Shown here one piece after another: positions 1-19,050 of a DNA stretch of 43,449 nucleotides. The DNA comes from an uncultured virus (IMG/VR IMGVR_UViG_2576861739_000001) (taxonomy: Duplodnaviria; Heunggongvirae; Uroviricota; Caudoviricetes). The DNA is taken from IMG/VR virus record IMGVR_UViG_2576861739_000001. One strand, given 5' to 3'. Each line of letters begins with the position of its first letter. Position 1 is the first letter of the stretch. Below the pieces are notes generated by a model, which made no database searches, had not been told where the DNA came from, and saw nothing but the letters and a program-made list of their open reading frames with translations. A program made the translations under genes and the position numbers.

Positions 1-570
1 TCAGGCCAGCAGAAAGGGCTGGCCGGTGGAGTTGGTGAGCACACCTTGCGGGGTCAGCACGGCGTTGGGGGGTATGGGTGTGCCATCTGCCAACGTGGGC
101 ATCTGTGGTGGTGGCGTGGCGGCACTTTGCGCGCTGATGTAAAGCTGCACATTTACCGTAACGCTGCGCCCCTGCACGGTATGCAGCACCATCTGCACCG
201 TCTGCACCGTATCTGGCGGGCCGCTGCCCAAAAACACGCAGGCCATGCCTTGAATAACTGTAACCCACAGCACGGCCAGGTCTGTATTCTGCCCGGTGGC
301 TGTGGGCACGCTAGCCTCCACCTTGGCAAGTGTATCCCCCGTGCTCTGCAACCATGCAGCGGGGGTAAGCGTATAATCCAGCGCATCTGCACTGCTGCGC
401 GCGGGCCATGCCTGCACCACCTGCTCCGCCAATTGGCCCCGCAGGCACAAACCCGGTGCAATCATAACTGGCAGCACGCGTGCGCTGGCAGGCTGCCACC
501 CAGGCGCTAGCACCGCACCCTGCGGTAAAAGGGTGCAGGATGTATCTGCAATATTACAAGAACATGTCAT
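1..570 (-). CDS. Putative phage fibre-tail adaptor protein
   Basis: Directly downstream of the tail fibre; DALDYTLTPAAWL..GD motif and beta-rich core resemble fibre adaptor proteins; TGA stop at 1-3. Confidence 0.55.
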   Translation of the reverse strand: MTCSCNIADTSCTLLPQGAVLAPGWQPASARVLPVMIAPGLCLRGQLAEQVVQAWPARSSADALDYTLTPAAWLQSTGDTLAKVEASVPTATGQNTDLAVLWVTVIQGMACVFLGSGPPDTVQTVQMVLHTVQGRSVTVNVQLYISAQSAATPPPQMPTLADGTPIPPNAVLTPQGVLTNSTGQPFLLA

Positions 571-576
571 GGTTTT

Positions 577-1674
577 TTACCTTGGCCCAATGGCGGTAAC
601 CCATACCGTTATGGGGGTGGAAACCGCGCCATCATGGTCATCCACCACGTAGCGCACACCCACAGCGCCAATGCCTGTGGCGGTGGGGGCCTGTTCTGGC
701 ATGGCCAGTGTCATGCGTTGTTCATACTGCATGCACTGCAACTGCACGGATGTGGGCACCCCCGCAAAAGCCTGCGGAAAGGTAATGGCATCTCCATCCT
801 GAATATTTACGGAAAAGGACTGAATGCGCTGCCCGTATGGCAGGTTGATAACCCGCCCATCCTGCGTGGCAAAATCGGCCTGATACGTGCCCTGCCCCAC
901 ATAGCTGCCCGCGGGCTGAAACACCCCGTTGGCCCAACCCTGCGTGGCCACCACCGCACCATCTGGCATATGGATGGTGCCATCTTGGCGGAACTGCCAT
1001 TCATGCCACCCGCCTGCGGCATCTGTTAACTGCACGCTGGCAAAAGCATATTGCTCAAACGCATCGCGCAGGCAGAACAGCGCCTTCATGGTGGCGCTAT
1101 ACCCCAGACGAGAAATAAACTGCGGCCCCCACGGCGTATCGCCCGCCTGCGGTGCACCATTGCTGCCGCTGCCGCCCCATGTGCCCGTGCTATCATAATA
1201 GCCATTGCTAATTTTGCCGCCTGTGAGCGGAAAAAAGCTTTGCGCGGCCTGGGCGGATGTCAGCAACCCGTTAAACAGGTTTGTCCACGCTGCCCCCTGC
1301 GCGCCGGGGGTGGAAAGGTTGTTATCCTGCCCGGAAACCCAGAACGTGCCCGCAACGCTGCCCGCCACCACGGCCCCGGCGGGGTAACCGCCAATGACTG
1401 CGGCAAAGCTGGCATCAAACGGGCCCACATAGCCTGTTTGCAAAACCTGTATGGCGGCAGAAAGTGTTTTTAAAAACCCGTTCATATCCGCCCCGCGCGG
1501 GGGCACACCACCGGCGGCGCGTTCTGTAAAGGTTTCTGGCGGAAAGCCCAGCGCCATGCTGGCCGAGCCATCGCCCACCGTGCTTTGCGCTGCGGGAATA
1601 TCCGCACAGTTGGCCGCTGTGGCAGAGGCCGCAATAGGCGTTGTAAACCGCCCGGAAATATCTGCTTGTTTCAT
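577..1674 (-). CDS. Tail fibre protein (baseplate-anchoring N-terminus, gp53-like C-terminal domain)
   Basis: N-terminal ASMALGFPPET..AGGVPPRGADMNG..IGGYPAGA is typical of fibres that follow DUF2612; C-terminal ITFPQAF...VWVTAIG; start set at ATG 1674 (MKQADI). Confidence 0.8.
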   Translation of the reverse strand: MKQADISGRFTTPIAASATAANCADIPAAQSTVGDGSASMALGFPPETFTERAAGGVPPRGADMNGFLKTLSAAIQVLQTGYVGPFDASFAAVIGGYPAGAVVAGSVAGTFWVSGQDNNLSTPGAQGAAWTNLFNGLLTSAQAAQSFFPLTGGKISNGYYDSTGTWGGSGSNGAPQAGDTPWGPQFISRLGYSATMKALFCLRDAFEQYAFASVQLTDAAGGWHEWQFRQDGTIHMPDGAVVATQGWANGVFQPAGSYVGQGTYQADFATQDGRVINLPYGQRIQSFSVNIQDGDAITFPQAFAGVPTSVQLQCMQYEQRMTLAMPEQAPTATGIGAVGVRYVVDDHDGAVSTPITVWVTAIGPR

Positions 1675-1681
1675 AAGTGTT

Positions 1682-2260
1682 TCAGCCCCTGATGCTGTAG
1701 GAAACCGCAACCCCGGCAGGGCGCGGCAGCACGCCGGCGTTTTCGATAATGGAAACCTGCACATCTGTTGGCACAAAGCCAAAGGCGTAGGTCATGCTCA
1801 TGTTGGCGTTATCTTCCACCCATGCATCGCCCTGCCCGGCAAACAGCGTGCGCAAAATGGCGTTGAGCGAAAGCACGGAACAATCCGTAATATTGGCCAG
1901 CGCCTTGGCATAAATAAGCTGCCGAAACCCAGAATCTGACAGGCTGCAATTTGCAAAATCACCCACCACAACACGGCCCGCATACCACGGGGCGGTGTTA
2001 AAGCCCTGCTCTGTTAAGTCGTTGGCCTCGGCAAAGCCTAAATACTGGCCCGATGCCATGCGCAACACGCGTGATACCCCAACAATGCGGCCCCATACAT
2101 CCAGCCCGTAACCCTGGGCTGTTTCTATATTCCATATGTTAGAAAACCAATTTTCTATACTTTGTGCAGGATCAAAACACTGGTTCCAGCCTTCCAGCAG
2201 CGCGTTCAGGCTGGGCGAGCATGCATATTGCGAAAGCACCGTTTGCCCCACATTCTGCAT
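1682..2260 (-). CDS. DUF2612 baseplate wedge protein
   Basis: TVLSQYACSP, WNIETAQGYGLDVWGRIVGVSR and LPRPAGV motifs; follows baseplate J; start ATG 2260 overlaps the upstream stop. Confidence 0.85.
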   Translation of the reverse strand: MQNVGQTVLSQYACSPSLNALLEGWNQCFDPAQSIENWFSNIWNIETAQGYGLDVWGRIVGVSRVLRMASGQYLGFAEANDLTEQGFNTAPWYAGRVVVGDFANCSLSDSGFRQLIYAKALANITDCSVLSLNAILRTLFAGQGDAWVEDNANMSMTYAFGFVPTDVQVSIIENAGVLPRPAGVAVSYSIRG

Positions 2261-3495
2261 CAGGCAAACTCCACGGTAATAGCGGCCAGTTCCAGCGTGA
2301 AAATCTGGTTGATATTGGCCTGCGCCGTAACATCCGTGGGGCTGGCCGCCGTGCCCACCCGAATATCCACCACCTGCGCCCAACGGCCCACCGCCGCCAC
2401 GCAGGCGTAAAACCGGCTGGCATACAGCGTGCCGCCAATGCCCACACGGGCCGCGCCATCCTGCCCCAAAAAGCACGCCAGAACGGCCTGTTGAATGGCA
2501 GATGTTGCCGTATCTGGCACCTCTGCGCCTGCTGCCAGTGTGAGCGCAACATAAAGCGGCGTGGGCTGCGAGCGCTCAAACGCCACTGTATAGCTGGGCG
2601 GCGTGGTATAGGTACCGGATGGATCTGTTACCGTTACACGGGTGCTGCCGGTATAGGCGCAACCGGGCGGCTTTTTGCGCAAAATGGCCAAGGCGACATC
2701 GGCATCCGCGCCACCATTTACGCACACATACAGGCTATAGGGCGCCAGTGTGACGCCTCCCTGCGTTTCTGCAACATTGCTGCTGTTATCTGCAACATAT
2801 GCATCTGTTACGCCATCCGCTGCCTGCACGGCGGCCAGAATGGCAGCCAATGGCCCTACGGAATTAACAGCTACAGCAGCCTGCCTGCGGGCTTCAAACG
2901 CCGTGCGGCCTTCTACCTCACGCCCTGTTACCCCCGCCACGGCGTTGCTCACGCCAGACCACCCGGCAACAGACTGGCACAGCCGCACGCTGCCCGCCGG
3001 GCAGGATACCTTCCCCACCGTGGTGCAGGAAAACGTGCCAGCACCTGTGCCTGTGGTATCCAGCGTAATGGCGGCATCTGCCGCATAGGTGTTGCCTGCG
3101 GCATCTGCCACCAAGGCCCCTTGCGGAATAACCGTGCCCTCCACCCCCGTGCACTGGCATGTTACCACCGTGGGCGTGGCGGGTTTGCGCTCCATAAAGT
3201 AAATGCGGCCAATGGCATCCTGCATCCGGCCAGAAGCACGCGCGGGGTCCACCCCGTTAAACACGGCCAGCATCTGATCATACGCATCGCCCAAAATGGC
3301 GGTGAGCGATGTCGCCAACTGCCCCTGTGGGGTGGATAAATCCGTATTGAGCGTATTGCCAAAAGCGGCGTTGATATCTGCCAGAACATCGGCCAGCATA
3401 TCTGCCTCCTGCGGCAGCACAAAGCCGGTATCATCCAGCGTGGGCGCGGGCACGGATGTGGTGCCCGCTGCAAATGAGGTTTCAGAAACTGGCAA
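2260..3495 (-). CDS. Baseplate J/gp47-family protein
   Basis: TPQGQLA, DPARASGRMQDAIGRIYFMER and GREVE..FEARR motifs; TTG start. Confidence 0.9.
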   Translation of the reverse strand: MPVSETSFAAGTTSVPAPTLDDTGFVLPQEADMLADVLADINAAFGNTLNTDLSTPQGQLATSLTAILGDAYDQMLAVFNGVDPARASGRMQDAIGRIYFMERKPATPTVVTCQCTGVEGTVIPQGALVADAAGNTYAADAAITLDTTGTGAGTFSCTTVGKVSCPAGSVRLCQSVAGWSGVSNAVAGVTGREVEGRTAFEARRQAAVAVNSVGPLAAILAAVQAADGVTDAYVADNSSNVAETQGGVTLAPYSLYVCVNGGADADVALAILRKKPPGCAYTGSTRVTVTDPSGTYTTPPSYTVAFERSQPTPLYVALTLAAGAEVPDTATSAIQQAVLACFLGQDGAARVGIGGTLYASRFYACVAAVGRWAQVVDIRVGTAASPTDVTAQANINQIFTLELAAITVEFA

Positions 3496-3835
3496 GGGTT
3501 GTGCTTCCGTTTTGCAATGTCAGATAAATCTGGCCGCTGAGTTTGCGGTCTGCCCCAAGGCTGGCCAGCACACAGGTGGCGCGCGCCACGTTGGGCACGG
3601 CAAGGGCCGCCTGCGCCACATCGGCCCGAAACAGCGCGGCAGACTGGTTGCGCCCCAAAACACCCGCCAGATAGGGCAGGCCAAGGGCCGTGTTATACCA
3701 GCACTCCCCCCGAAACACGCGCACCGCGCTGGAAACATCCTGCGCGGTGGCATAGGGCACATCCGCCACGGCAATATTGCCCTGTGCATCCACGGCCAGG
3801 TCCCACGTTGCGCGGTCCAGCAACAAGGTTTTCAT
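3482..3835 (-). CDS. Baseplate wedge / sheath initiator (gp25/gp46-like)
   Basis: 117 aa, WDLAVDAQGNIA..AQDV..FRGECWYNT.LGLPY; between spike and baseplate J. Confidence 0.75.
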   Translation of the reverse strand: MKTLLLDRATWDLAVDAQGNIAVADVPYATAQDVSSAVRVFRGECWYNTALGLPYLAGVLGRNQSAALFRADVAQAALAVPNVARATCVLASLGADRKLSGQIYLTLQNGSTTLASF

Positions 3836-3846
3836 ATGTGCTTCTC

Positions 3847-4536
3847 CTAACCCTGCGGGGTGCTGGTGCTGCCACTGCCGGGCATAACCCCGCCATGCAC
3901 ATGCGACGTGAGGGATACACCACCAGCCTGCACATCCTGCCCCACATTCAGGCTGCCGCTTATGCTGGCATCTCCTGAAATCCTGAGTGATTGTGCAGAT
4001 ATTTCCACAGTTCCGGGTGTATGTATCACCACCCCATCGGGCGTGAACTGAATATACTGGCTGGGGGCCGCGTTTAAAAAACCGCCTAGATACAGCGCAT
4101 CTGCCATATTGTTGTGGCGGAAACTGGCGGGGGGTGCGACGGCACGCGCAGTTTTAACGTTCAGGATATCCCGGTCCGCCATTACGGCCAGCCCGATATC
4201 CCCCACCGCCGGGTCCAGCACCACAGCGCTGCTGCCGCCCTGAAGCCGAAAATACGGCACGTTATACAAAACCCCATGCGGCGTGGTCTGGCCTGTGGCA
4301 TCCTGCTGGTGCACCATGGGCTGCACATCCACAAACCCCACGGGGGCCAAACCTGCGCCCCAAACCGCACACACCTTAACGGGTATGGCGGTGCGCACCT
4401 CCACCAACATGCGGCGCATAACGGCCACAAGTGCGTTGTAATCCGATGCCGCAGCCCCTGCCCTGTCAAACACCGCCTGCCCGGATGCAGGCATGTTGGG
4501 CGGAAAGCCGGATGCAAAACTGTTTTGATCTGTCAT
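3847..4536 (-). CDS. Baseplate central spike (Gp138/gp45-like, membrane puncturing)
   Basis: OB-fold-like VDVQP..VPY...DPAVGDIGL, beta-helix repeats and C-terminal SLTSHVHGGV (HxH metal tip); start set at ATG 4536. Confidence 0.85.
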   Translation of the reverse strand: MTDQNSFASGFPPNMPASGQAVFDRAGAAASDYNALVAVMRRMLVEVRTAIPVKVCAVWGAGLAPVGFVDVQPMVHQQDATGQTTPHGVLYNVPYFRLQGGSSAVVLDPAVGDIGLAVMADRDILNVKTARAVAPPASFRHNNMADALYLGGFLNAAPSQYIQFTPDGVVIHTPGTVEISAQSLRISGDASISGSLNVGQDVQAGGVSLTSHVHGGVMPGSGSTSTPQG

Positions 4537-5459
4537 GCGTTTTCTGCCCCCACAGCCTGCGCCACCACATGTGTAAACCACGGGCCATCTGGCATGTGTG
4601 CGCTTAAACTGTGCCGAAGCTGCAAAACCTGCCACAGCCCCACATCACCCCCGCCGGGCTGATACCGGCTTTGCAACGCCAGCACGCTGCCGTAGCTGAT
4701 GCGCGGGTTAAACAGCATGTTCAGCGCCACCCCACCGGCAGACCATGTGGGATACCCCACCAGCCCCGTGCTGGCCGAAACCGCAATGGCGGCAGATGTT
4801 TCCACCATTGCGTTGGCCCCACCCGTTCTGGCAGGCCATGCTGCCAAACGCCCCCGGCCCAATGCGGCCTGAAAAGGCTGTGTGTTCCAACACTGGCTGA
4901 TCTGCTGCCCCGCCGTGCCATGAAAATACGGATCATGCAGCATGGTGTTTAGCCCGTTATTTTCAAACGCCAACCCGGCCTGTGCGGCAATACGCGCCAA
5001 TACCTGCGCCAGTGGCACAGCCCCCCTAAACCCGGTAGGCGCGGCAGGCAGTGCGTTTGGCAGCACTGTAGAAAACGCCTGCACCACAAAGGCAACATCT
5101 GGTGCGGCGCTGTAATCTGCAAAAGCCAGCGTAACCCCACCTTGAAATACAAGTGCCTGCGCGCCGGATGCCCCATCTGGCACCATCAGCAGCACCTCGC
5201 TGGCACTCTGGCTGGTGGGGTCTGGCGCGCTCAGGCTCAGGCGGTTCATCAAATCCGGGGGCAGACCGGTTAGGCGTATCTGCGCGGTTTCTCCCGTTGG
5301 GTACGGGGCCTGCATGATCTCCGCCTGCACCTGCAAGCCAGAAAGGGTAACCGTATCCACCCCATCCGCCGTGCCAAACACGCCATTGAGCAGCCGGAAT
5401 GTCACCTGCACATCTCGGCTGGCCCAATCTGGCGTTTTTGTGGTTTGTAAGTCGATCAT
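4533..5459 (-). CDS. Baseplate hub protein
   Basis: Position before the spike; VSASTGLVGYP, LFNPRISYG and W.V..L.H.L motifs; start set at ATG 5459. Confidence 0.75.
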   Translation of the reverse strand: MIDLQTTKTPDWASRDVQVTFRLLNGVFGTADGVDTVTLSGLQVQAEIMQAPYPTGETAQIRLTGLPPDLMNRLSLSAPDPTSQSASEVLLMVPDGASGAQALVFQGGVTLAFADYSAAPDVAFVVQAFSTVLPNALPAAPTGFRGAVPLAQVLARIAAQAGLAFENNGLNTMLHDPYFHGTAGQQISQCWNTQPFQAALGRGRLAAWPARTGGANAMVETSAAIAVSASTGLVGYPTWSAGGVALNMLFNPRISYGSVLALQSRYQPGGGDVGLWQVLQLRHSLSAHMPDGPWFTHVVAQAVGAENA

Positions 5460-5776
5460 GCGGGCCAGCCTGTGCGCCACAGCAGCACATAGCGCGTGCC
5501 AATCCCGGTGCTTTGCGGGTCCTGCACACCTTGGGTATCCATAAATGCCAGATCACCCGGCAGGCCAGTTGCGGCAGTGCGCGCCAGCCATGTGCGATCC
5601 TGGCACAACACGCCAGAAAGCACGCGCCTGCCTGCACACCATATATCTGCATACAGGCCGGTGGCCCGCTGGCGCAGGGCTATCTGGAGTGTCTGTTCGG
5701 CCAGCGTGATCTTAAACATTTGTGCAGGCACAGCACTTATGGGCACCTGCACCAGTGTGGCACCTGTGCTGCTCAT
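5456..5776 (-). CDS. Small baseplate (plug-like) protein
   Basis: VPISAVPAQ.F.I.L..Q...LRQ..GLYADI..GDLAFMDTQG..DP...G.G.RY.L pattern; start set at ATG 5776. Confidence 0.7.
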   Translation of the reverse strand: MSSTGATLVQVPISAVPAQMFKITLAEQTLQIALRQRATGLYADIWCAGRRVLSGVLCQDRTWLARTAATGLPGDLAFMDTQGVQDPQSTGIGTRYVLLWRTGWPA

Positions 5777-6486
5777 GCAATTTCTCCGGCATCTGCGGTG
5801 CTGGTGGTGGCATAGGCCATGCCGCCGCACTGTATCTGCTGGCCCTGCGGCATGCGTGTGCTGGCAAACTGCGTGCTTCCGGTTATGCGCACTTCCTGCA
5901 AGGCAATTTCTACAACTGGCATGGTAATGCCCTGCCGGGCTTCCCGCATCCAGCGGTGGCCGATAATGTTCACGCTATCGTATTTCTTTTCCGGGGTTAT
6001 TACGGCATACAGGTTTGTATCGGCCTCCAATGCCTCCAGCGTGGCAAAAAAGCCTGCACGCACATATAGCGCGCCCGCCTGCCCGGCCCCGGCCAGAACA
6101 TCCAGTGCAAGACTGGTGGCGCTGGCATCTTCCATCCCGGCTTCAGACCCATCGCACACCATCATAATCCGATGTTGCCGAGACATGCGCACCTTGCTGT
6201 AAGATAAAAACGCACCATCCTCCAACGGGGCTTCTGCAATACGCCATGCACTTTGCATATCTGCAGAAAGCACATGGGCAGATGTTAAAACCCGCTGCCC
6301 GTCCTGCGTAAAAATACCCCACTGGCTGGCCGCCTGCGTAATTTGCAGATCATCCAGCAAACTGCCCACCGTAACAGAGGCCGAAGCCTGCACCCCGGCA
6401 GAAACAGATTGCCCCATAAGGGCAGGCACCCCCGCCGCCACGGGAATATTCCATACAGATGGCAGGCTAACTGGCAACATGGGCAT
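5773..6486 (-). CDS. Baseplate organisation / Dit-like protein
   Basis: QWGIF..G, IAEAPLEDGAFLSYSKV, VITPEKKYDSVNI and LQEVR motifs; follows the tape-measure slot. Confidence 0.7.
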   Translation of the reverse strand: MPMLPVSLPSVWNIPVAAGVPALMGQSVSAGVQASASVTVGSLLDDLQITQAASQWGIFTQDGQRVLTSAHVLSADMQSAWRIAEAPLEDGAFLSYSKVRMSRQHRIMMVCDGSEAGMEDASATSLALDVLAGAGQAGALYVRAGFFATLEALEADTNLYAVITPEKKYDSVNIIGHRWMREARQGITMPVVEIALQEVRITGSTQFASTRMPQGQQIQCGGMAYATTSTADAGEIA

Positions 6487-7520: not shown

Positions 7521-7771
7521 GTTTGCGGGCTTTCCTGCGCGGGCGTGTGCGCCATGTTCCAGTTGCGCACAGAAAGTATTTCTAAAAGCGTGTAAAAATC
7601 TTCGCTGTCATAAACTGTTTTCAGTTCATGCAAACTTGCAAGGCCGGATGCCACAACCGCCGCCATGGCGGGTGAGATGTTTACGCAGTTTACAACGGGG
7701 CCTGTGCGGCCTCGTCCCCCAGCAAAGCCGCCACCAGGGGGAAAAGCTGGTGCGCGGCGGCCCGCAAAAAA
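7505..7771 (-). CDS. Tail assembly chaperone C-terminal extension, read in the -1 frame (absent from the ORF track)
   Basis: Manual translation from the T-TTT-TTG site at 7765-7771 gives an open frame ..NISPAMAAVVASGLASLHELKTVYDSEDFYTLLEILSVRNWN.. ending TAA at 7505-7507; an internal ATG at 7666 would give 53 aa. Confidence 0.75.
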   Translation of the reverse strand, partial: FFAGRRAPAFPPGGGFAGGRGRTGPVVNCVNISPAMAAVVASGLASLHELKTVYDSEDFYTLLEILSVRNWNMAHTPAQESPQTWPKL

Positions 7772-10339: not shown

Positions 10340-11252
<913 letters not shown>

Positions 11253-11570
11253 TTACGCGGGCGTAATGCCGGGGGCTGGCGCTGCGGGGTTAAGCGGTTC
11301 CATACCCGTGCGCAGGCTGGCTTGTTCCTTGGCTTGGCCTGCGGCTTTTTCTGGCGTGGTCTGGGCAAAAATCAGCCCGGCTTCCAGTGGGGGAAAGCCT
11401 GCGTATTTTTGCGCCCATGCCTGCCAGAAATCTGCTGGCACGGGGGTAAGCCCATACCCGCCCGCTTTGGCCGTGCGTGCGCCTGCCAGCTCGTGCCGCT
11501 GGCCTGCCAGTTCCAGCACAAGCCCGTTGGGCAGTTTGCACCCAACGGTAACTGTTGATGATGTTGCCAT
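11253..11570 (-). CDS. Conserved small phage protein after the major capsid gene
   Basis: VTVGCKLPNGLVL..GYGLT.V..DFW.AW..GLIFA..TGMEPLNP pattern; position after the capsid. Confidence 0.65.
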   Translation of the reverse strand: MATSSTVTVGCKLPNGLVLELAGQRHELAGARTAKAGGYGLTPVPADFWQAWAQKYAGFPPLEAGLIFAQTTPEKAAGQAKEQASLRTGMEPLNPAAPAPGITPA

Positions 11571-12653: not shown

Positions 12654-13153
12654 TATGCGTGCATCCATGTAGAAATCCGAACCAGCTCACCCGCAGCACC
12701 GGCGGAAGCTACAAAAAACCCTGTGGCCACCGCACCTGTTACAGAACTGCCTGTGGCGGCGGTGCTGATGGTGCCATCACTCAAACTGGCAAAAACGGCC
12801 TGCCCCGGCGTGGCCTGCGTGGTGGGCTGCACCCAAAAATCCCCCGCCGTAAACAGCGTTACGGGAAAGCCCTGCGGAATAACCATGCTTTCCGATGCCG
12901 TAAAATCCGTGATCTGGGCAGTCAGATCCCGATGCACAAAGCCATCGGGCGCGGCAGTGCTGCCAGATGGCGGCATGTTGGCCACACTTACGCCATCGGG
13001 CTGCACCCAGCCAAAGGCAGCCACCGTGCAGCCACCCGCAGCCGCCACCAATGCGCCCTCACCCGCCGGAAAGGTGGCCGTGGGGTTGAGGGATGCAAAA
13101 TCACCCGGCACAGCAGGCGCTGGCTGGATGTTGACCTGATTTTGAAAAGACAT
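12653..13153 (-). CDS. Head decoration / cement protein
   Basis: FQ.QVN.QPAPAV.GDFAS.NP, GFVHR and VTL..AGDFW motifs; between protease and capsid. Confidence 0.75.
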   Translation of the reverse strand: MSFQNQVNIQPAPAVPGDFASLNPTATFPAGEGALVAAAGGCTVAAFGWVQPDGVSVANMPPSGSTAAPDGFVHRDLTAQITDFTASESMVIPQGFPVTLFTAGDFWVQPTTQATPGQAVFASLSDGTISTAATGSSVTGAVATGFFVASAGAAGELVRISTWMHA

Positions 13154-13190
13154 TTACCTGCCTTGTATCATGCAAAAATAAAAAAGGCTT

Positions 13191-14192
13191 TCAGCCGCGC
13201 ACGCCAATGCGTTCCAGCCCAAAGCGCTGCCGAAAGCCCTGTGTGGCCGCAGTATCCTGCCCCATTACGGGGGCCGTGCCACCAGCACGCGGCTGCATGC
13301 GCGCAAAGCTTTCAAACAGCGGCTTTAGCCCCTGTTCAGGCACGCCCGTGACATCAATGCCTGCTTCCTTTAAGGCAAAACCGTAAACGGCGGGGGCGCT
13401 ATCCATCGCCACATCGCCCACAAAGGGGCGCACGGCGGCGCGGGCTGTGTGCAGGTCTGCCATCTGGCGCACGGTACGTTCTTCCGCCTGCTGCACGGCC
13501 TGGGCAATGGCGGCATCCATGGCCGCAACGGTAATGGGCGTTTGATCAGGCATGGCCTGAAAGCTCCTGTTGTTAAAAGGCATGTTGGGGTTTGGTGCGG
13601 CATCACCAATAATGGCGGCAGGCACACGAGGCTGAGCCACAAGGGCCAGATGGTTAAAGGCAATATCCGCCATTATCAGCGTATAGGGGGTGCCCATATA
13701 GGTGCCCGCCTGCCTGATGGCCGTGTACCGATACCCGGCAGAAACCGCACGCTGTGTGCCGTTTTCTATGGCCGCAATGGTTGAGGCATCCCATATCGTC
13801 AGGCTGCCTGTCAGGTTGGGTGGGGTAAAGCGTACATCGCTGCCCACCGCGCCAACGGTTATGCTGGCTGGGTGATCCTGCGCGCTTACGGGGGTATGCT
13901 GCATAAGCACCGGTTTGCCGCACAGGCTGGGGGCGGCGCGCATAAGTGCATCTGGCGGGCGAAAAACGCTGTAAACGCCATCATCTTTCAGGCCCAGCGC
14001 AGCGGCTCCCGGTATTTCGCGCCCATAATAGGGGCTAACGGTTGCGGCGGAGAGAATGCAGTGTGCAATGTGCAAATGCCCATCTGCATCCACCCGGCGC
14101 ACGCTGGCCCTGTCCAGCGCCAAAGGCTGCGTATCGGGCGCAACAGCAGCGTGCGGGCTGGCGCGGGCCTGCCCGGTATTGCGTGTGTTCAT
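13191..14192 (-). CDS. DUF2213 prohead protease/scaffold
   Basis: DADGHLH..A.VSPYYGREIP, GKPVLMQH, VSAGYRY and NHLALV motifs; helical C-terminal scaffold region. Confidence 0.9.
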   Translation of the reverse strand: MNTRNTGQARASPHAAVAPDTQPLALDRASVRRVDADGHLHIAHCILSAATVSPYYGREIPGAAALGLKDDGVYSVFRPPDALMRAAPSLCGKPVLMQHTPVSAQDHPASITVGAVGSDVRFTPPNLTGSLTIWDASTIAAIENGTQRAVSAGYRYTAIRQAGTYMGTPYTLIMADIAFNHLALVAQPRVPAAIIGDAAPNPNMPFNNRSFQAMPDQTPITVAAMDAAIAQAVQQAEERTVRQMADLHTARAAVRPFVGDVAMDSAPAVYGFALKEAGIDVTGVPEQGLKPLFESFARMQPRAGGTAPVMGQDTAATQGFRQRFGLERIGVRG

Positions 14193-15568
14193 GGTGGCGT
14201 ACTCTGTTTTTTGGCGTCTATATCCGCCTGTTCGGCCTCATCCATCTGCCAGAGCGGGCGGAAGGTGAACGTAATGTCCGTATCCACCGCGCCCCACAGG
14301 TTCAGCATCACCATGTGCAGAATGTGCGTAAGGTTGGGGCGCAGGAAGGATTCCTGATAAGCGCTGATCCGATCATAAAAAACCCGGATCTCGCCATCAG
14401 CCGAGGCATTCAGCCCGGAAGGGGAAATACCGGCAAACTTTACCAGCGGCTGTTGTGCCACGGTGCAGATCTGCTCCAGCGCCTGTGCCTGCAAACTGTC
14501 CAGCCCGGAAAGGGGCGCGGCCAGAAGTTCCAGCTTTTCGCGCTCCTTATCCAGCACAAACGTGCCCCGGTTGGAACGAAAGCGGTTAAACGCCTCCACC
14601 CGCGCCAAAAGTCCTTCGGGGTCCTGCGCATAGGCCGCCATATCGGTGGACAGCGCGACAATGGAAAACGCATTCAGCAAATCCGAAACACTCTGGCGCG
14701 TGCGCAACCAGTTTTCCACATAGGGCCGCGCCATTTGCGTAAGGGAAACACCGCCGAAGTTATAAGCGGGTTTAAGAATATCCGGCACCTCCCGCGCGCA
14801 AAACCGCAACAGGCGCGTAGCGTGCAACAGCGTGCCCTGCACCCACCAGCTTTGCGGTTTGTAAAAGGCAGGGTGCAGCGGGTTTACGGTTTCATACATG
14901 GCGGGGGTTGTCCACACCGGTTCCACCGGCACCAGTGCGCGCAAACTGCCTTTGCGGAAGGTTTCTGGCCGCAACAGCAAGGGCGATGCCAAACCACCCG
15001 CCACGGGGGAAAGCCTGGTATCTACATACAGCAGGCCCATGCCGTAATGGCCGTCCATTTCCGCCATGCGGCGCAGCACATCGCGCACATTCAGGCGGGT
15101 AAACTCGGCCTCCAACTGGTTAATGCGGTCTGCCTTGCCCGCCCCCTGCCCGGAGCGAGAGGTAAACACCAGCCATTGCCGCGTGGCCTCGGTGGCAATG
15201 GTGTCCACCATGTGCCGGTATTCCGCCCGCTGGGCCATTTCCGCCAGCCGCGCATAACCGGGAAACACCACCCCATCCGCCACGGCATTGCGCAGCCAGT
15301 CCAGCAAACCGGGGGCGTTTTGCGCAGCGGCACTATCCATGGCCAGCGGGGCGGTGCTGCCATTGGCCCGCACCCCGCGCGGGGGCCGATACGGTGCAAA
15401 CACATCTGCCCGCGCCACGGCTGCCGGGGCCACCTTGGCCACATCTGCGGCAAAGGTGCCTTGGGGTAGCATCGGCTCCTTACGCGGCAGGGGCACAGGG
15501 GCATGCCGCCCGCGCAAACGCTGCCACCACCCCAGCCGAGCGCGGGAAGAAAAAGACAAACCAGACAT
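14189..15568 (-). CDS. DUF1073 portal protein
   Basis: FPGY..LAE.AQRAEYR, FYKP..WWV, LKPAYNFGGVSL.Q, GISPSGLNAS.DGEIRVFYD and F.F.PLW motifs; start uncertain, ATG 15568 chosen. Confidence 0.85.
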   Translation of the reverse strand: MSGLSFSSRARLGWWQRLRGRHAPVPLPRKEPMLPQGTFAADVAKVAPAAVARADVFAPYRPPRGVRANGSTAPLAMDSAAAQNAPGLLDWLRNAVADGVVFPGYARLAEMAQRAEYRHMVDTIATEATRQWLVFTSRSGQGAGKADRINQLEAEFTRLNVRDVLRRMAEMDGHYGMGLLYVDTRLSPVAGGLASPLLLRPETFRKGSLRALVPVEPVWTTPAMYETVNPLHPAFYKPQSWWVQGTLLHATRLLRFCAREVPDILKPAYNFGGVSLTQMARPYVENWLRTRQSVSDLLNAFSIVALSTDMAAYAQDPEGLLARVEAFNRFRSNRGTFVLDKEREKLELLAAPLSGLDSLQAQALEQICTVAQQPLVKFAGISPSGLNASADGEIRVFYDRISAYQESFLRPNLTHILHMVMLNLWGAVDTDITFTFRPLWQMDEAEQADIDAKKQSTPP

Positions 15569-15726
15569 ACCCTGCCCTTTGTTGAAAATTGGAAAAAAAC
15601 TTGTCTGCCCCCGCTGCGGGCGGGTAAATGGGCGGCATTGAAATGCAACCTGATTGCGGTGCTGTAAGCCGTGGCGCGGAACGGATGATCTGCAATCACC
15701 CAACAGGCCCAAGGAACTTGCCGAGC

Positions 15727-16779
15727 ATGACTGCCCAGCCCTCTGCCCCCACGCCCGATACCCAAAACGCAGCCCTGCCCATTTGCGTGGCGGCCCTTTA
15801 CCGCTTTACCCCATTTGCAAACCCGGCTGATCTGCGCGGGCCGTTGCAGGATGTGTGCACCGCCAACGGGGTAAAGGGCATTCTGCTTTTGGCATCCGAG
15901 GGCATTAACGGCACCATTGCAGGCACAGATGCCGGTATTGAGGCCGTGCTGGCGCATATCCGCACCCTGCCCGGCTGCGCGGATATTGAGGTCAAGTTCT
16001 CCCGCGCGCCAGAAATGCCCTTCCTGCGCATGAAGGTGCGGCTGAAAAAGGAAATTGTCACAATGGGTGTGGAGGGCACAGACCCCAACCACATTGTAGG
16101 CACCTACGTACCCCCCACAGAATGGAACGACCTGTTAAAAGACCCCGACACCATTCTGATAGACACGCGCAATGATTACGAAGTGGCCGTGGGCACGTTT
16201 GAAGGTGCGATAGACCCGCAGATTAAAACCTTTCGGGAATTTCCTGCATGGTTCCGCCAGCACCGTGAGGAGCTTCTGGCAAAGGGCCGCAAGCCGCGTG
16301 TGGCCATGTTCTGCACCGGGGGCATTCGGTGCGAAAAATCCACCGCCTTTGCCAAGGCCGAAGGGCTGGATGAGGTGTACCATCTGCAAGGGGGTATCCT
16401 GAAGTATCTGGAAACCGTGCCAGAGGAAGAAAGCCTGTGGCGGGGTGAATGTTTTGTGTTCGACCAGCGCGTAACAGTCGGCCACGGCCTTAAACCCGGT
16501 GAGTTGGAACTGTGCCACGCCTGCCGCACGCCCATTACGGCGGAAGACAAGGCCAGCCCCAAGTTTGAAACCGGCGTATCCTGCCCGCACTGCTACGGCC
16601 AGTGGGACGAGGCCCGCCGCGCTCGCCATGCGGAGCGTGAACGCCAGGCCCGTTTAGCCGAACAGCGTGGCGAGGCCCACTTGGGCGCCAACATGGCGGA
16701 AGAACGCGCCCGCAAACGCCAGCAGCGCGAGGAAGAAAAGCGCCGCCAGCAAGCCTTGCGCCAGCAGCACACGCCCTAA
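15727..16779 (+). CDS. trhO: tRNA uridine(34) hydroxylase TrhO (rhodanese-related, UPF0176)
   Basis: [64 protein letters not shown] and GECFVFDQR motifs; start set at ATG 15727. Confidence 0.93.
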
Positions 16780-18230
16780 ATCCGGGCCAGAAAATCCGGC
16801 CCAAAGCGCGGCAGGGGGTGCACCTCTGCCAGTGCGGCAAAAGCACCGGATGCAGCGTCCACCTGGTCATCATGCATGGCGGCGGGAAAAGCCGCCAGTT
16901 CCTCCATAAACGCATGCACCCACGGGGCGCGTAGCAGCAGCACGTTGCCAGCATTTACCTGCGCGGCAAACGGGGCTGCGCGGGTGGCTTTATCTCCTGT
17001 TTCACGCACGCAGCGCACCTTGTAACCGGCCAGCCTGCCGGTGAGGTACCGCGCCTGCGCCACACCGGCCTGCCCGGGGTCTTGCGGCAGCACAATGTCC
17101 ACCCCCACACCATCACGCGCGGCGGTGGCCAGCAAGGCGGCTTCTACCTGTGCGGGGTCTCCACGCAGGCGGGTAATGTCCGCCACCACAAAGCGCCCAT
17201 CTGGCAGGTGGTGCATTTTTACGCCCACTGTCCAGTCCGGGTTGTTGCTGCCGGTCTGGCGGGTGGCGGCAAGGTCCCACCTCCGCACGGCGGGGCCGGA
17301 TGCTGCGGGCAGTGCCTCCTGCACCCCCAGCATGTGGGTGTGGAACAGATTGCCAGAAAGCGGCACCGGGTTTTGCTGGTACAGTGCGGCCCATTCCCGC
17401 TCCCCCACGGCCTGACGTATCCGCGCAAGTTCCGCCGTATCAAACGCCTGCGGCCATAGCGCCTGCCCCGGTATGCGGCCCAGTGCATCGGGTGCGGTGG
17501 CCAGGGCGGGCAGGTCCAGCACATGCCATGCCTCGCCCGTTTTGTTCTGCATATCATCCAGCAGGCGGCCTGCCAGATCATCCATGCTCCAGCGCGTCAT
17601 CACCAGCACAATGGCGCCGCCGGGCATCAGGCGGGTGCGCAGCACGGCGCGGTACCAGTCCAGCACAGCGGCACGGCGGGCGGGGCTTTCGGCCTCCTGC
17701 CTGTCCTTTACGGGGTCATCTATAATGGCCAGATGCGCGCCACGGCCCGTTAGCCCGCCGCCCACACCCATGCCGGTGTACCCTCCACCCTGTGCGGTGT
17801 GCCATACATCACGCGCGCTGCTATCTGCCGCCAACTTTGTTGCGGAAAACAACGCCCCATAGCGGGAGGACGCCACAATATTGCGCACATCGCGCCCAAA
17901 ATCCTGCGCCAGCGTGGCCCCGTAAGAGGCCCCGATAATCTGCCGCCTGGGGTGCCGCCCCAGATACCATGCGGGAAAGCGGCGAGATGTCAGCTCCGAT
18001 TTTCCGTGCCGGGGCGGCATAAACACCATCAGCCGCGTAATACGCCCGGCCTCCACCTGCTCCAGCGTGCGGGCCAGCAGGGCATGATGTGCGCCTGCTT
18101 TGTAATCTGGCAGCGTATAGCGGGCAAAATCCAGAACATGCTGGCGTGCGGCTTGCCTGCGTGCCAGTTCTGCCCGCGCCACCCGGCCCGCCTGCATGAT
18201 ACGTGCAGGTTGAGGCAAGGAATGCCGCAT
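16776..18230 (-). CDS. terL: Terminase large subunit
   Basis: Walker A MPPRHGKS, Walker [13 protein letters not shown] coupling motif, nuclease WDLA and HDDQVDA, all intact. Confidence 0.95.
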
Positions 18231-18287
18231 AAAGCCCCCTGAACATCATAAGAAAAAACACTTTCTGGCAGGGTTGCCCGCGCCTGT

Positions 18288-18638
18288 TCAGCGCCCTTCG
18301 CTTTCCGGCGTCTGGCCTGCGGCTGCCTGCGCCCCATGTTGCGGCGGCACGTTGTTTTCCTGCGCAAGAGCGGCCAGCTCCTCATCCGTAAAGGCATCGG
18401 CGCTGCAGCGTGGTTGGGCATCTGCGGCAAGCCCCGCAAGTTTAGGGTGCATGTAGGGGGCAGCCACCTTTGCGGCATCAAACTGGCGCTCTGTTATACT
18501 TTCATCCCCCTGCATGATGCGGATAAAGATATCCAGCGGCGTTACGGCCCGTGTACTGCGCCGCCTGCGGCGTGGCGGCGGCTCCAAAGCTGATGGCCCG
18601 GATACGCCCGGCGCGGGTGCTGGTGTCTTGCGTGGCAT
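18288..18638 (-). CDS. Terminase small subunit-like protein
   Basis: TPLD.FIRIM...RQFDAAKVAAPYMHPKL pattern typical of small proteins preceding TerL; start set at ATG 18638. Confidence 0.65.
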   Translation of the reverse strand: MPRKTPAPAPGVSGPSALEPPPRRRRRSTRAVTPLDIFIRIMQGDESITERQFDAAKVAAPYMHPKLAGLAADAQPRCSADAFTDEELAALAQENNVPPQHGAQAAAGQTPESEGR

Positions 18639-19050
18639 GGGCGCCCCCACTGTGCGGGTTATCAAAAAAACGGCTGCACCGCGTATTTGCGCGGCGCGTG
18701 ATGGTGGCAAAGAGGTGGCCTGTTTCATCCCTGTGGCGGCGCAGCTCCTGCACAAGAGTGGTGAGCATGCGCTGGCGTAGGGGGCTGTTCAGCCAGCCTA
18801 CACCATGCAGCCCCGCCACATTGGCCCGCCATACGGGGCGGCAGCGCAGCACGGCCTGCGCGGGGCAGCCCAGTTGCAGCGCCTGCACCCAACCTATGCA
18901 GATATCCGCCCGATGGTGATGGCGAGGCACGCATACCAGTGGGCACACAACAACACCCGCCCCCACCGGCTGCGCCACAACCCACCAGCACCGTGCGCCG
19001 CGCAGCACTTTGCCACACGCCGCCTGTGCCATGCGCGTTGCTATGGGCAT
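18502..19050 (-). CDS. Hypothetical protein, possible degenerate PemK/MazF-like fold
   Basis: AAGGA RBS before ATG 19050; VVVCPL..HRADI.I..LG...AVLRC..VG.L pattern; last 137 nt overlap the TerS-like gene. Confidence 0.45.
   Translation of the reverse strand: MPIATRMAQAACGKVLRGARCWWVVAQPVGAGVVVCPLVCVPRHHHRADICIGWVQALQLGCPAQAVLRCRPVWRANVAGLHGVGWLNSPLRQRMLTTLVQELRRHRDETGHLFATITRRANTRCSRFFDNPHSGGAHATQDTSTRAGRIRAISFGAAATPQAAQYTGRNAAGYLYPHHAGG

What the first reader, a model, noticed from the sequence alone, without database searches (positions are those of the whole stretch)
1..19050. Candidate domesticated phage-particle system (GTA-like) with head, terminase and contractile tail
Seen: a near-complete packaging, head, neck, sheath/tube, baseplate and fibre operon with no internal stops and intact TerL motifs. 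Upstream there is only one small ORF and then ordinary host genes, with no integrase, repressor or replication module. A housekeeping gene (trhO) is embedded in it, and several genes look trimmed rather than randomly broken. Known: gene transfer agents such as RcGTA are virion operons without replication or integration genes, held at fixed loci; R-type tailocins and eCIS lack capsid and terminase. Inference: this may be a host-maintained particle that packages chromosomal DNA, from a lineage (DUF1073/DUF2213/DUF2184/DUF3383 myovirus) unrelated to RcGTA. A recently crippled prophage is the alternative, and the left boundary is not visible.
Basis: partly seen in the sequence, partly recalled or inferred. 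Interest (0 to 1): 0.85.

Follow-up and report, generated by a model that had tools for sequence, protein, structure and literature searches.

The report
Domesticated phage-particle locus in Acetobacter
A complete set of phage head, DNA-packaging and contractile-tail genes sits at one fixed chromosomal site around a host tRNA-modification gene in many Acetobacter species and has been kept intact like a host gene, so it looks like a phage the bacteria have tamed to make particles for their own use.

Summary
Observation confirmed: window 1-19050 (minus strand) holds 21 intact structural genes, TerL and a TerS-like gene of an E217/Pam3-type myovirus. The single-copy host gene trhO lies on the other strand between TerL and portal. 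The window is from Acetobacter (TerL 98% to A. pomorum).

The same cluster, with trhO embedded and the same host flanks, occurs in two Acetobacter clades: 14 of 56 genus genomes, plus 3 partial. All structural gene cores are uninterrupted in 13 loci checked. Concatenated dN/dS is 0.08-0.14, against 0.07-0.15 for host genes. Cluster and flanks have diverged equally (dS about 1.6-1.9 between clades), and the structural-gene tree matches the rpoB tree. No integrase, att, replication or lysis genes were found. A wild relative in the same genus carries integrase, a CI-type repressor, cro and a Holliday-junction resolvase.

It is not visible in this window.

The orthologue was published as "phage phiAO1": mitomycin-induced myovirus-like particles, called merely "incomplete".

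Verdict: an old, host-maintained particle system of GTA/PBSX type. Whether it moves host DNA or kills is untested. Two relatives have deleted it.

The parts
1..570 (-). gp77-like fibre-tail adaptor, last gene of the cluster; its stop codon is at window base 1-3
   Evidence: PF23148 E 5e-15, phrog_4137. In A. pasteurianus LMG 1262 it is followed by host genes f148-NhaP-TonB receptor.
577..1782 (-). tail fibre; conserved part starts near residue 37
   Evidence: phrog_12796 E 8e-28. 93-97% identical in the P clade, 39-56% in the O clade.
1682..3835 (-). DUF2612 protein (1682-2476), Baseplate J (2260-3495), wedge W/gp25-like (3482-3835)
   Evidence: PF11041 E 3e-53; PF04865 E 3e-16 with phrog_6 E 1e-58; phrog_120 E 4e-27.
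3847..6486 (-). central spike with GpV apex (3847-4635), hub (4533-5480), Pam3 gp18-type plug (5456-5830), phrog_1830/Dit-like protein (5773-6486)
   Evidence: PF18946, PF22759, PF22479, phrog_1830 E 2.5e-56.
6522..7520 (-). ORF in the tape-measure position, 332 aa, fast evolving
   Evidence: No family hit. The frame is open in 5 P-clade genomes and every indel is a multiple of 3. Differences fall 42/38/52 by codon position. dN/dS is 0.46-0.57. The phiAO1 counterpart has 526 aa with weak tape-measure PHROG hits; the wild relative has 664 aa.
7690..9778 (-). tail assembly chaperone (7690-8145), tube (8184-8759), DUF3383 sheath (8624-9778)
   Evidence: phrog_1932 E 9e-38; PF22764 with phrog_1964 E 4e-50; PF11863 E 4e-65 with phrog_205.
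9797..11570 (-). neck terminator (9797-10387), head protein phrog_1912 (10336-10815), DUF4054 (10707-11216), phrog_2085 (11253-11570). The Neck1/tail-completion gene present at this point in O-clade orthologues and wild relatives is missing here.
   Evidence: phiAO1 12252-12746 is phrog_222 Neck1 (E 1e-39). It has tblastn matches in 9 O-clade composites besides phiAO1 itself and in 4 wild-type loci (L007, L022, L106, L107). It has none in the window or in the P-clade composites G003, G033, G009, G034 and A. pomorum L002.
11616..15712 (-). major capsid (11616-12668), cement/minor capsid (12653-13153), DUF2213 protease/scaffold (13191-14192), portal (14189-15712; probable start near 15571)
   Evidence: phrog_264 E 2e-77; PF23982 E 4e-33; phrog_2229 E 3.5e-101; PF06381 E 1.5e-74. 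MCP dN/dS is 0.02-0.08.
15628..16779 (+). trhO (rhodanese-type tRNA hydroxylase family), a host gene; probable start near 15724. It runs convergent with TerL (the ORF ends overlap at 16776-16779) and divergent from portal.
   Evidence: PF17773 + PF00581. One match in each of 4 of 4 genomes searched by handle, and matches in 50 of 56 genus genomes whether or not the cluster is present.
16776..18230 (-). large terminase
   Evidence: PF03237 + PF17289, phrog_38 E 3e-105. 98% to A. pomorum, 75.7% to phage record phiAO1, next best phage 45.6%.
18288..18638 (-). TerS-like small protein: basic N-terminus and a conserved core
   Evidence: phrog_15261 E 5e-12 (function unknown in PHROGs). It lies directly before TerL in all 17 loci examined, wild relatives included. 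The name is inferred from position only.
18502..19050 (-). conserved unnamed ORF upstream of the TerS-like gene (counterpart of phiAO1 ORF 020); coding status uncertain
   Evidence: tblastn 33-86% to ORFs at the same place in 13 loci. No family hit. Atlas features gave only unnamed clusters.
19215..25422 (.). host context: membrane protein p19215 (19215-19865, +), AT3-SGNH acyltransferase (19873-21897, -), B12/radical SAM protein (22223-23701, +), Hint-domain protein (24184-25422, +)
   Evidence: A p19215-like gene lies next to trhO in 7 cluster-free loci (L090, L098, L100, L101, L102, L108, L184). An AT3 homologue lies next to trhO in cluster-free G058.

Best explanation
Window 1-19050 is one copy of an old, vertically inherited, non-autonomous phage-particle locus of Acetobacter. 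It is the head, packaging and contractile-tail module of a temperate E217/Pam3-type myovirus. It has lost integration, replication and recognisable lysis genes, and it is now kept by selection as part of the chromosome, wrapped around the host gene trhO.

Proposed working, with status of each step:
1. DNA damage inactivates a CI-like repressor that carries a LexA-type S24 self-cleavage domain. The gene is shown in relatives and is not visible in this window. Cleavage is inferred. Mitomycin induction is published for the orthologue.
2. This releases a small divergent operon whose last gene has a sigma-region-4-like fold and sits directly before the terminase genes in wild relatives. A role as late-gene activator is inferred.
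3. The structural segments, separated by host genes, are expressed. Heads, necks and contractile tails assemble (inferred).
4. The TerS-like protein and TerL fill heads with DNA cut from the chromosome, the locus itself included. DNase-protected DNA of the locus is published for the orthologue. The share of other host DNA is unknown.
5. Particles leave by lysis, using genes not identified here.

Head, portal and terminase are as strongly constrained as host genes. I therefore take DNA packaging and delivery (GTA-type transfer, SOS-triggered as in PBSX) as the selected function. Killing of competitors is the main alternative.
For: - Synteny: all 21 structural genes keep the same order in 13 loci of two clades. 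Host genes sit at the same insertion points: trhO, with or without peroxiredoxin and SOD, between TerL and portal; catalase between spike and wedge in 7 O-clade loci. The downstream host flank is the same: f148-NhaP-TonB receptor-APH-PnuC.
- Empty sites: cluster-free genomes have p19215-like, trhO, f148 and the TonB receptor next to each other.
- trhO gives a single match in each of the 4 genomes searched by handle and is present in 50 of 56 genus genomes.
- Selection: concatenated structural dN/dS is 0.08-0.14 in 12 pairs. Host genes in or near the locus give 0.07-0.15, with similar dS in each pair.
- Between the clades, structural genes show 63-66% amino-acid identity and dS 1.6-1.9. Host flanks show 63-69% and dS 1.6-1.7.
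- No stop codon falls in any conserved core.
- The tree of 18 concatenated structural proteins has the same topology as the rpoB tree for the shared taxa.
- Distribution is clade-bound: 4 of 4 genomes in the pasteurianus clade and 13 of 14 in the orleanensis/malorum/tropicalis clade have it. Among the other 36 genomes on the rpoB tree there is none.
- No integrase, att, replication or lysis family was found in 10-20 kb of flanks in several genomes.
- A related prophage in G033 (MCP 74% identical) has integrase, CI, cro, a Holliday-junction resolvase and a 664-aa tape measure.
- The CI-like repressor (HTH_3 + Peptidase_S24, phrog_4 E 1e-35 to 1e-38) co-occurs with the cluster in 17 of 17 genomes, against 1 of 39 others.
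- Published (PMC8566455, passages and sections 5-8, 15, 19, 21 read): A. orleanensis NBRC 3170 treated with mitomycin C releases myovirus-like particles. DNase-treated particle DNA gave the 34.1 kb record phiAO1. That record is this locus with its host genes and has no integrase.
Against: - Nothing here shows what DNA the particles of this organism carry, or that they are made at all. The published orthologue yielded its own locus, not demonstrably random host DNA.
- The window version lacks a Neck1/tail-completion gene and four distal tail genes that orthologues keep, so its particles may differ or be incomplete.
- The regulatory module is not in the 43 kb window.
- Two relatives deleted most of the cluster: G034 lost head and baseplate genes, and G010 lost portal to fibre. 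The whole aceti-like sister clade lacks it. It is therefore dispensable.
- No lysis genes were identified.
- Purifying selection could partly reflect transfer of the element between strains rather than benefit to the host.
- RNA-library contigs cover the cluster, but they cannot separate transcripts from carried-over DNA.
Confidence: 0.65

Rival explanations
1. PBSX-type killer particle. The locus is domesticated as above, but the benefit is killing related strains through the contractile tail. The packaged DNA is a by-product.
For: SOS-type control fits: a CI-like S24 repressor and mitomycin induction of the orthologue. The tail-tip genes and the neighbouring acyltransferase are the most diverged parts among close relatives: gp77 85-88% and AT3 79-82%, against 93-99% for most structural genes. 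That pattern suits an arms race over surface receptors. From recall: PBSX of Bacillus subtilis keeps head and terminase yet is known as a killer.
Against: MCP, portal and TerL are among the most constrained genes (dN/dS 0.02-0.14). Tailocins selected only for killing have lost these genes (recalled). No killing data exist.
Confidence: 0.2
2. Selfish integrase-less element. The particles preferentially package their own locus with its host flanks. In a new cell the element is installed or renewed by homologous recombination through those flanks and the embedded host genes.
For: The phiAO1 particle DNA assembled into the locus bounded by host genes on both sides (sorbosone dehydrogenase, MutT) and with host genes inside. 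Occupied and empty alleles share flanks that could serve as recombination arms.
Against: The structural tree is congruent with rpoB at species level, and dS is equal for cluster and flanks. Transfer between species is therefore not seen. How the published contig ends were set is not stated in the methods section.
Confidence: 0.1
3. Inert remnant of a prophage that is simply decaying slowly.
For: There are no integrase, replication or lysis genes. PHAST called phiAO1 'incomplete'. Deletions occur in G034 and G010. The tape measure evolves fast (dN/dS about 0.5).
Against: All structural gene cores are uninterrupted in 13 loci after dS of up to about 2, with dN/dS near 0.1. Even the fast tape-measure ORF keeps its frame, with only 3n indels. 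Particles are published for the orthologue.
Confidence: 0.05
4. A still autonomous temperate phage, as the GenBank title 'phiAO1, complete genome' implies, with its missing functions among the unnamed ORFs.
For: Particles and DNA were recovered after induction. Several ORFs have no assignable function.
Against: The chromosomal site and the embedded host genes are the same in species with saturated dS. There is no integrase or att. In G009 the regulatory module lies 1.85 Mb from the structural genes. The tree is congruent with the host tree.
Confidence: 0.03

Closest known systems
Acetobacter phage phiAO1 (GenBank LC644971; Omata et al., Sci Rep 2021, PMC8566455)
   Same: This is the orthologous locus. 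It has the same gene order from the TerS-like gene to the gp77-like gene, and trhO ('sulfurtransferase') lies on the opposite strand between TerL and portal. There is no integrase. Identities are TerL 75%, MCP 81%, portal 73% and sheath 69%.
   Different: phiAO1 carries more host genes inside (peroxiredoxin, Cu-Zn SOD, catalase). It also has a Neck1 gene, four extra distal tail genes including an 820-aa pectate-lyase-like spike, and a 526-aa tape measure. It was published as a temperate phage with an 'incomplete' PHAST call, not as a conserved chromosomal system.
PBSX-like defective prophages of Bacillus subtilis (recalled, not compared by sequence here)
   Same: Works alike: a chromosomally fixed, SOS-inducible, repressor-controlled locus that makes small-headed, contractile-tailed, DNA-containing particles unable to propagate.
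   Different: The host phylum and, as far as the family names go, the phage lineage are unrelated. Here the repressor is CI/LexA-like with an S24 domain, and host genes are interspersed among the structural genes. Killing and 13-kb random packaging, known for PBSX, are untested here.
RcGTA-type gene transfer agents of Alphaproteobacteria (recalled)
   Same: A head-tail-terminase cluster without replication or integration genes, inherited vertically under purifying selection in an alphaproteobacterium.
   Different: The families found here are those of an E217/Pam3/XM1-type myovirus with DUF3383 sheath and baseplate, whereas RcGTA is tail-tube only (recalled). Control here appears SOS/CI-type, not CtrA/GafA-type. 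The regulator-like protein of the Acetobacter element is not hit by PF20057. Random packaging and transfer are not shown.
Wild temperate relatives in Acetobacteraceae (for example the prophage in genome G033, contig C1, about 359-407 kb; loci L007, L022)
   Same: They share the same structural families in the same order. MCP is 74% identical, and the phrog_16492 regulator-like gene lies before the terminase.
   Different: They have integrase, CI, cro, a Holliday-junction resolvase and other early genes, and a 664-aa tape measure. TerL lies directly next to portal with no host gene between. They sit at other chromosomal sites.
Pseudomonas phage E217, cyanophage Pam3, Vibrio phage XM1 (source phages of the Pfam families hit)
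   Same: Hub, tube, plug, cement and minor capsid proteins fall in families named after these phages (PF22759, PF22764, PF22479, PF22758, PF23982).
   Different: Those are free-living phages, with only family-level similarity. The full 19.1 kb has no megablast match in 50,697 phage records.

Membership tests
Gene transfer agent (GTA), functional class (criteria recalled from reviews) | Particle genes reside in the host chromosome, are inherited vertically, and lack their own replication, integration and excision | tested here: met
   The locus is fixed with shared flanks. The structural tree is congruent with rpoB. dS is equal for cluster and flanks. No integrase or replication family was found in the flanks.
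Gene transfer agent (GTA), functional class | Structural genes are kept by purifying selection in the host lineage | tested here: met
   dN/dS is 0.08-0.14 over 21 genes in 12 pairs. No stop codon falls in any conserved core in 13 loci.
Gene transfer agent (GTA), functional class | Particles package essentially random host DNA rather than their own genome | not testable with these tools
   The only data are published: particle DNA of the orthologue assembled into its own locus. The share of other host DNA is not reported in the sections read. The supplements were not opened.
Gene transfer agent (GTA), functional class | Head capacity is smaller than the DNA needed to encode the particle | tested here: inconclusive
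   Published head diameter is 43.1 nm. A phage judged active in the same table measures 47.4 nm, so no capacity can be inferred.
Gene transfer agent (GTA), functional class | Transfer of markers to recipient cells | not testable with these tools
   No data were found. Searches (listings only) found no paper on a GTA, PBSX-like or tailocin-type system in Acetobacter.
PBSX-like defective prophage (criteria recalled) | SOS-inducible production under a resident repressor | tested here: inconclusive
   A CI-like HTH + S24 repressor is tied to the cluster in 17 of 17 genomes. Mitomycin induction is published for the orthologue. The repressor is not seen in this window, and cleavage is not tested.
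PBSX-like defective prophage | Particles kill sensitive strains and do not form plaques | not testable with these tools
   No data.
Intact temperate prophage | Integrase with att sites, replication and lysis modules | tested here: not met
   None were found in the window or in 10-20 kb flanks of the orthologous loci. Only a small Gin-type invertase lies nearby. A wild relative has integrase, CI, cro and a Holliday-junction resolvase.
R-type tailocin / eCIS | Contractile tail without capsid, portal and terminase | tested here: not met
   Capsid, cement, protease, portal and TerL are present and strongly constrained.
Pfam DUF6456 (PF20057), suggested for the regulator-like gene by Atlas features | Match to the family profile | tested here: not met
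   In 5 genomes no PF20057 match lies at the gene's coordinates. No Pfam hit was found with E up to 5 on 11 members. The fold search gives only middling Z of 5-6.5 to sigma region 4 domains and to phage 21 Q.

The most novel reading that the evidence does not exclude
Acetic acid bacteria carry their own gene transfer agent, of independent origin and derived from a myovirus. It is switched on by DNA damage through a retained CI-type repressor. Its particles start packaging at the locus and run into neighbouring chromosome. The host genes embedded in it (trhO, peroxiredoxin, SOD, catalase) and its host flanks then act as recombination arms, so the locus and linked stress genes are exchanged and repaired among Acetobacter strains.
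Probability: 0.2. Interest if true: 0.85.

Novelty: new variant of a known kind. Interest (0 to 1): 0.72.

Why it matters
Only a handful of independently domesticated head-and-tail particle systems are known (recalled: RcGTA-type agents, the Bartonella, Brachyspira, Desulfovibrio and Methanococcus agents, and PBSX). This would add another:
- It comes from a different phage lineage, with a contractile tail.
- It is found in industrially used, genetically tractable, harmless bacteria.
- It has an unusually clear evolutionary record: empty sites, intact copies in two clades, deletion variants and wild relatives, all within one genus.
- One member has already been seen to make particles.

It offers a direct test of what selection keeps such systems for, DNA transfer or killing. 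It also bears on strain stability and gene flow in vinegar and cocoa fermentations, and on the annotation of 'phages' such as phiAO1 in databases.

Tried and rejected
- Megablast of window 1-19100 against phage records gave no match.
- No whole genome is held for the window. The left flank and the regulatory module therefore had to be read from relatives. A. pomorum, the closest, is not held either.
- Alphaproteobacterial LexA-type direct repeat (recalled consensus): 28 one-mismatch matches against 19.4 expected, reached by 4 of 100 shuffles. None is exact and none lies in the region upstream of the TerS-like gene.
- CtrA-type box (recalled): 3 exact matches, all outside the cluster.
- A crude shared 8-mer search in the regions upstream of the four structural segments, across 16 loci, found nothing recurrent (best 5 of 16).
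- Head-size argument: the 43.1 nm head looked too small for the cluster. I dropped this because a phage judged active measures 47.4 nm in the same table.
- Base composition: cluster GC 0.58-0.63 equals that of host genes in the locus (0.57-0.60) and exceeds rpoB (0.50-0.56). This is not informative.
- Regulator-like protein: there was no Pfam or PDB sequence hit and Foldseek had no match at E of 0.001 or better. The Atlas lead to DUF6456 was not confirmed.
- Atlas features for the unnamed ORF 18502-19050 gave only unnamed clusters.
- RNA-library contigs of 4 runs from 3 studies cover 24, 29, 29 and 28 of 30 bins of window 1-19900. One run has far higher depth over trhO. Contigs cannot show transcription or exclude DNA carry-over.
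- Earlier notes of this scan: three look-ups returned nothing.
- The "trimmed" claim was tested gene by gene. Most genes have the same length as in wild relatives.

Full report
**What is there.** The first 19 kb of the window is a gap-free run of minus-strand genes. Pfam and PHROGs name them as a complete virion module of an E217/Pam3/XM1-type myovirus. In order: a TerS-like gene, TerL, portal, DUF2213 protease/scaffold, cement protein, major capsid, four neck proteins, DUF3383 sheath, tube, chaperone, an ORF in the tape-measure position, a Dit-like protein, plug, hub, spike, wedge, Baseplate J, DUF2612, tail fibre and a gp77-like adaptor. The adaptor's stop codon is at window base 1-3. trhO (UPF0176/rhodanese) lies on the plus strand between TerL and portal. 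TerL shows Walker A-like PPRHGKS and Walker B-like LAIIDDP. No tRNA gene is present.

To the right come an unnamed conserved ORF, a membrane protein, an AT3-SGNH acyltransferase, a B12/radical SAM protein, a Hint-domain protein and a Gin-type invertase. From about 26 kb to the window end lies the late region of a separate Mu-like prophage.

**Whose DNA, and the nearest record.** TerL is 98% identical to Acetobacter pomorum LHT 2458 and 96% to A. pasteurianus LMG 1262. Among 50,697 phage records the full 19.1 kb has no megablast match. By protein the best TerL hit is 'Acetobacter phage phiAO1' at 75.7%; the next is 45.6%.

The annotated phiAO1 record (34.1 kb, 40 genes) is the same cluster. A 'sulfurtransferase' (trhO) lies on the opposite strand between terminase and portal. 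Peroxiredoxin, Cu-Zn SOD and catalase lie inside it, sorbosone dehydrogenase and MutT lie at the ends, and there is no integrase.

The paper (PMC8566455; passages and sections 5-8, 15, 19 and 21 read) obtained it from DNase-treated particles of mitomycin-treated A. orleanensis NBRC 3170. Those particles had heads of 43.1 nm and contractile tails of 46.6 nm (n = 3). The authors noted the lack of integrase and called it 'incomplete' by PHAST.

**Two kinds of relatives.** Of the 79 loci returned for TerL, I compared loci L001-L035 (phiAO1 and the first 34 of the 79) with the window's proteins. Fourteen loci from Acetobacter species share the order TerS-like, TerL, trhO on the opposite strand, 0.1-5 kb of host genes, then portal. 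They come from pomorum, pasteurianus, tropicalis, farinalis, orientalis, senegalensis, malorum (two strains), orleanensis, persici, indonesiensis, thailandicus, cibinongensis, and phiAO1.

Another set has TerL directly beside portal at 55-64% identity. These are second copies in A. senegalensis and A. thailandicus, plus A. lovaniensis, Komagataeibacter, Commensalibacter and Saccharibacter. One such relative in genome G033 (MCP 74% identical) was annotated over 48 kb. It has integrase, a CI-type repressor, cro, a Holliday-junction resolvase, the regulator-like phrog_16492 gene, a 664-aa tape measure and the same baseplate set. That shows what the wild phage looks like.

**Fixed locus.** No whole genome is held for the window, so I read flanks in relatives.

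- In A. pasteurianus LMG 1262 the gp77-like gene is followed by a 148-aa membrane protein (f148), a Na/H exchanger, a TonB-dependent receptor, an APH-family kinase, PnuC, RcnB, PurU and further host genes.
- The same f148-NhaP-TonB receptor-APH-PnuC flank follows the cluster in A. orleanensis and A. thailandicus.
- trhO gives one match in each of 4 of 4 genomes searched by handle. It is found in 50 of 56 genomes of the genus, with or without the cluster.
- In cluster-free genomes trhO sits directly beside f148-TonB receptor-APH-PnuC. On its other side is a homologue of the window's membrane protein 19215-19865.

The two phage segments (TerS-like with TerL, and portal to gp77) thus lie on either side of a host gene, between host neighbours that are adjacent elsewhere. 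How that arrangement arose I cannot say.

**Intactness, selection, co-divergence.** In 13 fully or almost fully recovered loci all 21 structural genes are present in the same order. For two loci the last gene lies beyond the fetched range. Twenty-seven stop codons occur inside BLAST matches. All are at query positions 65 or lower, upstream of the conserved cores, because I had taken the longest possible ORFs.

| Comparison | Structural genes | Host genes in or beside the locus |
|---|---|---|
| dN/dS, 12 pairs (Nei-Gojobori, concatenated) | 0.08-0.14 | 0.07-0.15 |
| dS in example pairs | 0.187; 0.339; 0.757; 1.14 | 0.254; 0.291; 0.889; 1.14 |
| Amino-acid identity between the two clades | 63-66% | 63-69% |
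| dS between the two clades | 1.6-1.9 | 1.6-1.7 |

MCP (0.02-0.08), portal (0.02-0.15) and TerL (0.02-0.16) are among the most constrained genes. The tape-measure ORF is relaxed (0.46-0.57). Even so, its frame is open in five genomes and every indel is a multiple of three.

A tree of 18 concatenated structural proteins has the same topology as the rpoB tree for the shared taxa.

**Distribution and losses.** On an rpoB tree of 54 of the 56 genus genomes (two lacked an rpoB match), the cluster is distributed as follows.

| Group | Genomes | With cluster |
|---|---|---|
| pasteurianus clade | 4 | 4 |
| orleanensis/malorum/tropicalis clade | 14 | 13 |
| aceti-like sister clade | 16 | 0 |
| lovaniensis-like clade | 11 | 0 |
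| remaining lineages | 9 | 0 |

The minimum is three changes.

For three of the genomes counted as full the check was not complete. Two of them (G052, G037) rest only on MCP and TerL matches in fragmented or frameshift-rich drafts. In the third (G032) the contig ends after the hub gene. Two more (G011, G051) stop at contig ends, and no MCP was found in them.

Two losses are seen directly. G034 (trhO 99% identical to the window's) has a portal fragment fused next to a sheath fragment, and a Dit-like fragment next to a fibre fragment. Its head and baseplate genes are gone. G010 keeps trhO, peroxiredoxin and SOD, followed by a fibre fragment. The system is therefore old and conserved, but dispensable.

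Five to thirteen kb upstream of TerL, all O-clade loci and three P-clade genomes carry a CI-like repressor (HTH_3 + Peptidase_S24; phrog_4, E 1e-35 to 1e-38). It is transcribed divergently from an operon of three to four genes, and the last of these belongs to phrog_16492 (E about 1e-57 to 1e-60).

The repressor is found in 18 of 56 genomes. That is all 17 with a full or partial cluster, plus one other (63% identical, beside another prophage). It is absent from G010, which lost the cluster. In G009 the module lies 1.85 Mb from the structural genes.

The phrog_16492 gene sits immediately before the terminase genes in wild relatives. An AlphaFold model (pLDDT 75) has no significant Foldseek match. 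A wide structural scan gives Z of 5-6.5, mostly to sigma-factor region 4 domains and to phage 21 Q. I take that as a lead to a late-gene regulator, not a finding. It is not a member of DUF6456 by profile.

In the window itself no repressor is seen. Identity to A. pomorum stops at base 26076, inside the invertase gene. Beyond it lies the Mu-like prophage, with only distant homologues of two operon genes.

**What the window's version lacks.** Compared with O-clade orthologues and wild relatives, the pasteurianus-clade cluster has no Neck1/tail-completion gene (phrog_222). It also lacks four distal tail genes, among them an 820-aa pectate-lyase-like spike. It has the shortest tape measure and the shortest protease/scaffold protein. 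These losses are shared by the whole clade, and selection has stayed strong since then (dN/dS 0.10-0.14 within the clade).

**How it most likely works.** The steps are given under Best explanation. Shown here are the anatomy, the fixed site, the age, the constraint, the absence of mobility genes and the link to a CI-like repressor. Published for the orthologue are mitomycin induction, myovirus-like particles and DNase-protected locus DNA. Inferred are repressor cleavage, the activator role, chromosomal headful packaging, release, and the benefit to the host.

I lean to DNA delivery rather than killing because head, portal and terminase are as constrained as host genes. PBSX (recalled) is a warning that heads can be kept in a killer particle. 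RNA-library contigs from 4 runs of 3 studies cover nearly the whole cluster, but they cannot prove transcription.

**Known or new.** The locus has been sequenced and even named as a phage. In the library searched I found no paper that treats it as a conserved chromosomal particle system.

- 'Gene transfer agent' with 'Acetobacter': 17 papers, of which I saw 12 in the listing, none on this topic.
- 'Acetobacter' with 'PBSX': 3 papers, unrelated.
- A mixed search on domesticated prophage, tailocin and acetic acid bacteria: nothing relevant among the 10 listed of 549.
- A survey of Acetobacter prophages mentions phiAO1 only as a known phage (passages).

I file it as a new variant of the known kind 'domesticated head-tail particle systems'.

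**Limits.** There is no genome for the window's own strain. The species tree rests on one gene. Gene calls are my own longest ORFs. dS between the clades is near saturation. The function is untested. The supplements of the key paper were not opened.

Noticed in passing
window 25501-43449: Late region of a separate Mu-like prophage on the minus strand: gpT capsid, Gp36, sheath, tube, 707-aa tape measure, DNA-circularisation protein, gpP, Gp45-48, fibre genes and a Gin-type invertase. GC is 47-57%. It runs off the window's right end.
   Followed up: partly
window 26076 (inside invertase gene 25501-26142): The 99.3% identity to A. pomorum ends here, 22 codons into the invertase. A. pomorum has Hint-like sequence upstream instead of the Mu-like genes. 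In G009 the invertase, the Hint gene and the repressor module are absent from the cluster's side and lie 1.85 Mb away. This suggests repeated invertase-site rearrangements.
   Followed up: partly
window 19873-21897, 1-570 and 24184-25422: Among close relatives, the acyltransferase (79-82%), the gp77-like tail tip (85-88%) and the Hint protein (69-73%) are much more diverged than most other genes of the region (93-99%). The acyltransferase matches the PHROG O-antigen acetylase family. This may reflect surface-receptor diversification.
   Followed up: no
window 16776-16779 and 15572-15723: The TerL and trhO ORF ends overlap by 4 bases (convergent). Portal and trhO are divergent across about 150 bp. 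The structural genes therefore cannot be one simple operon. In the O clade host genes split them into four or five segments.
   Followed up: partly
G057:C156 and G006:C58; G032:C52 and G022:C160 (TerL): TerL of four O-clade species carries in-frame insertions (open frames of 518-579 aa against 484-492) at two different positions, without stops.
   Followed up: no
L025, L009, L012 (Commensalibacter intestini, communis, papalotli): A related cluster (TerL 56-59%) is collinear over all 21 kb in three species. It includes an S24 repressor-like gene, a small divergent operon and host-type genes (HlyD, PAP2, AraC/DJ-1) before the terminase. In L025, four large unnamed ORFs lie between portal and protease. 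It may be a second tamed lineage.
   Followed up: partly
L014:11814-19050 (Commensalibacter sp. Nvir): 8.7 kb is inserted between TerL and portal. It holds three ORFs with Pertussis_S1/Scabin-like ADP-ribosyltransferase domains and a MazE/MazF pair. Described only.
   Followed up: no
G033:C1 about 359-407 kb and G034:C1 about 2.13-2.15 Mb: Complete-looking prophages of the same structural type (MCP 74-75% to the window) coexist in genomes that also carry the fixed cluster or its deleted form. Exchange between the wild and tamed copies is possible and was not examined.
   Followed up: partly
phiAO1 L001:23390-25513; G057, G022, G006, G025, G026, G004 composites: A catalase gene lies on the opposite strand between the spike and wedge genes in 7 O-clade loci, with peroxiredoxin and SOD beside trhO in several. 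The host genes caught inside the cluster are mostly oxidative-stress genes.
   Followed up: no
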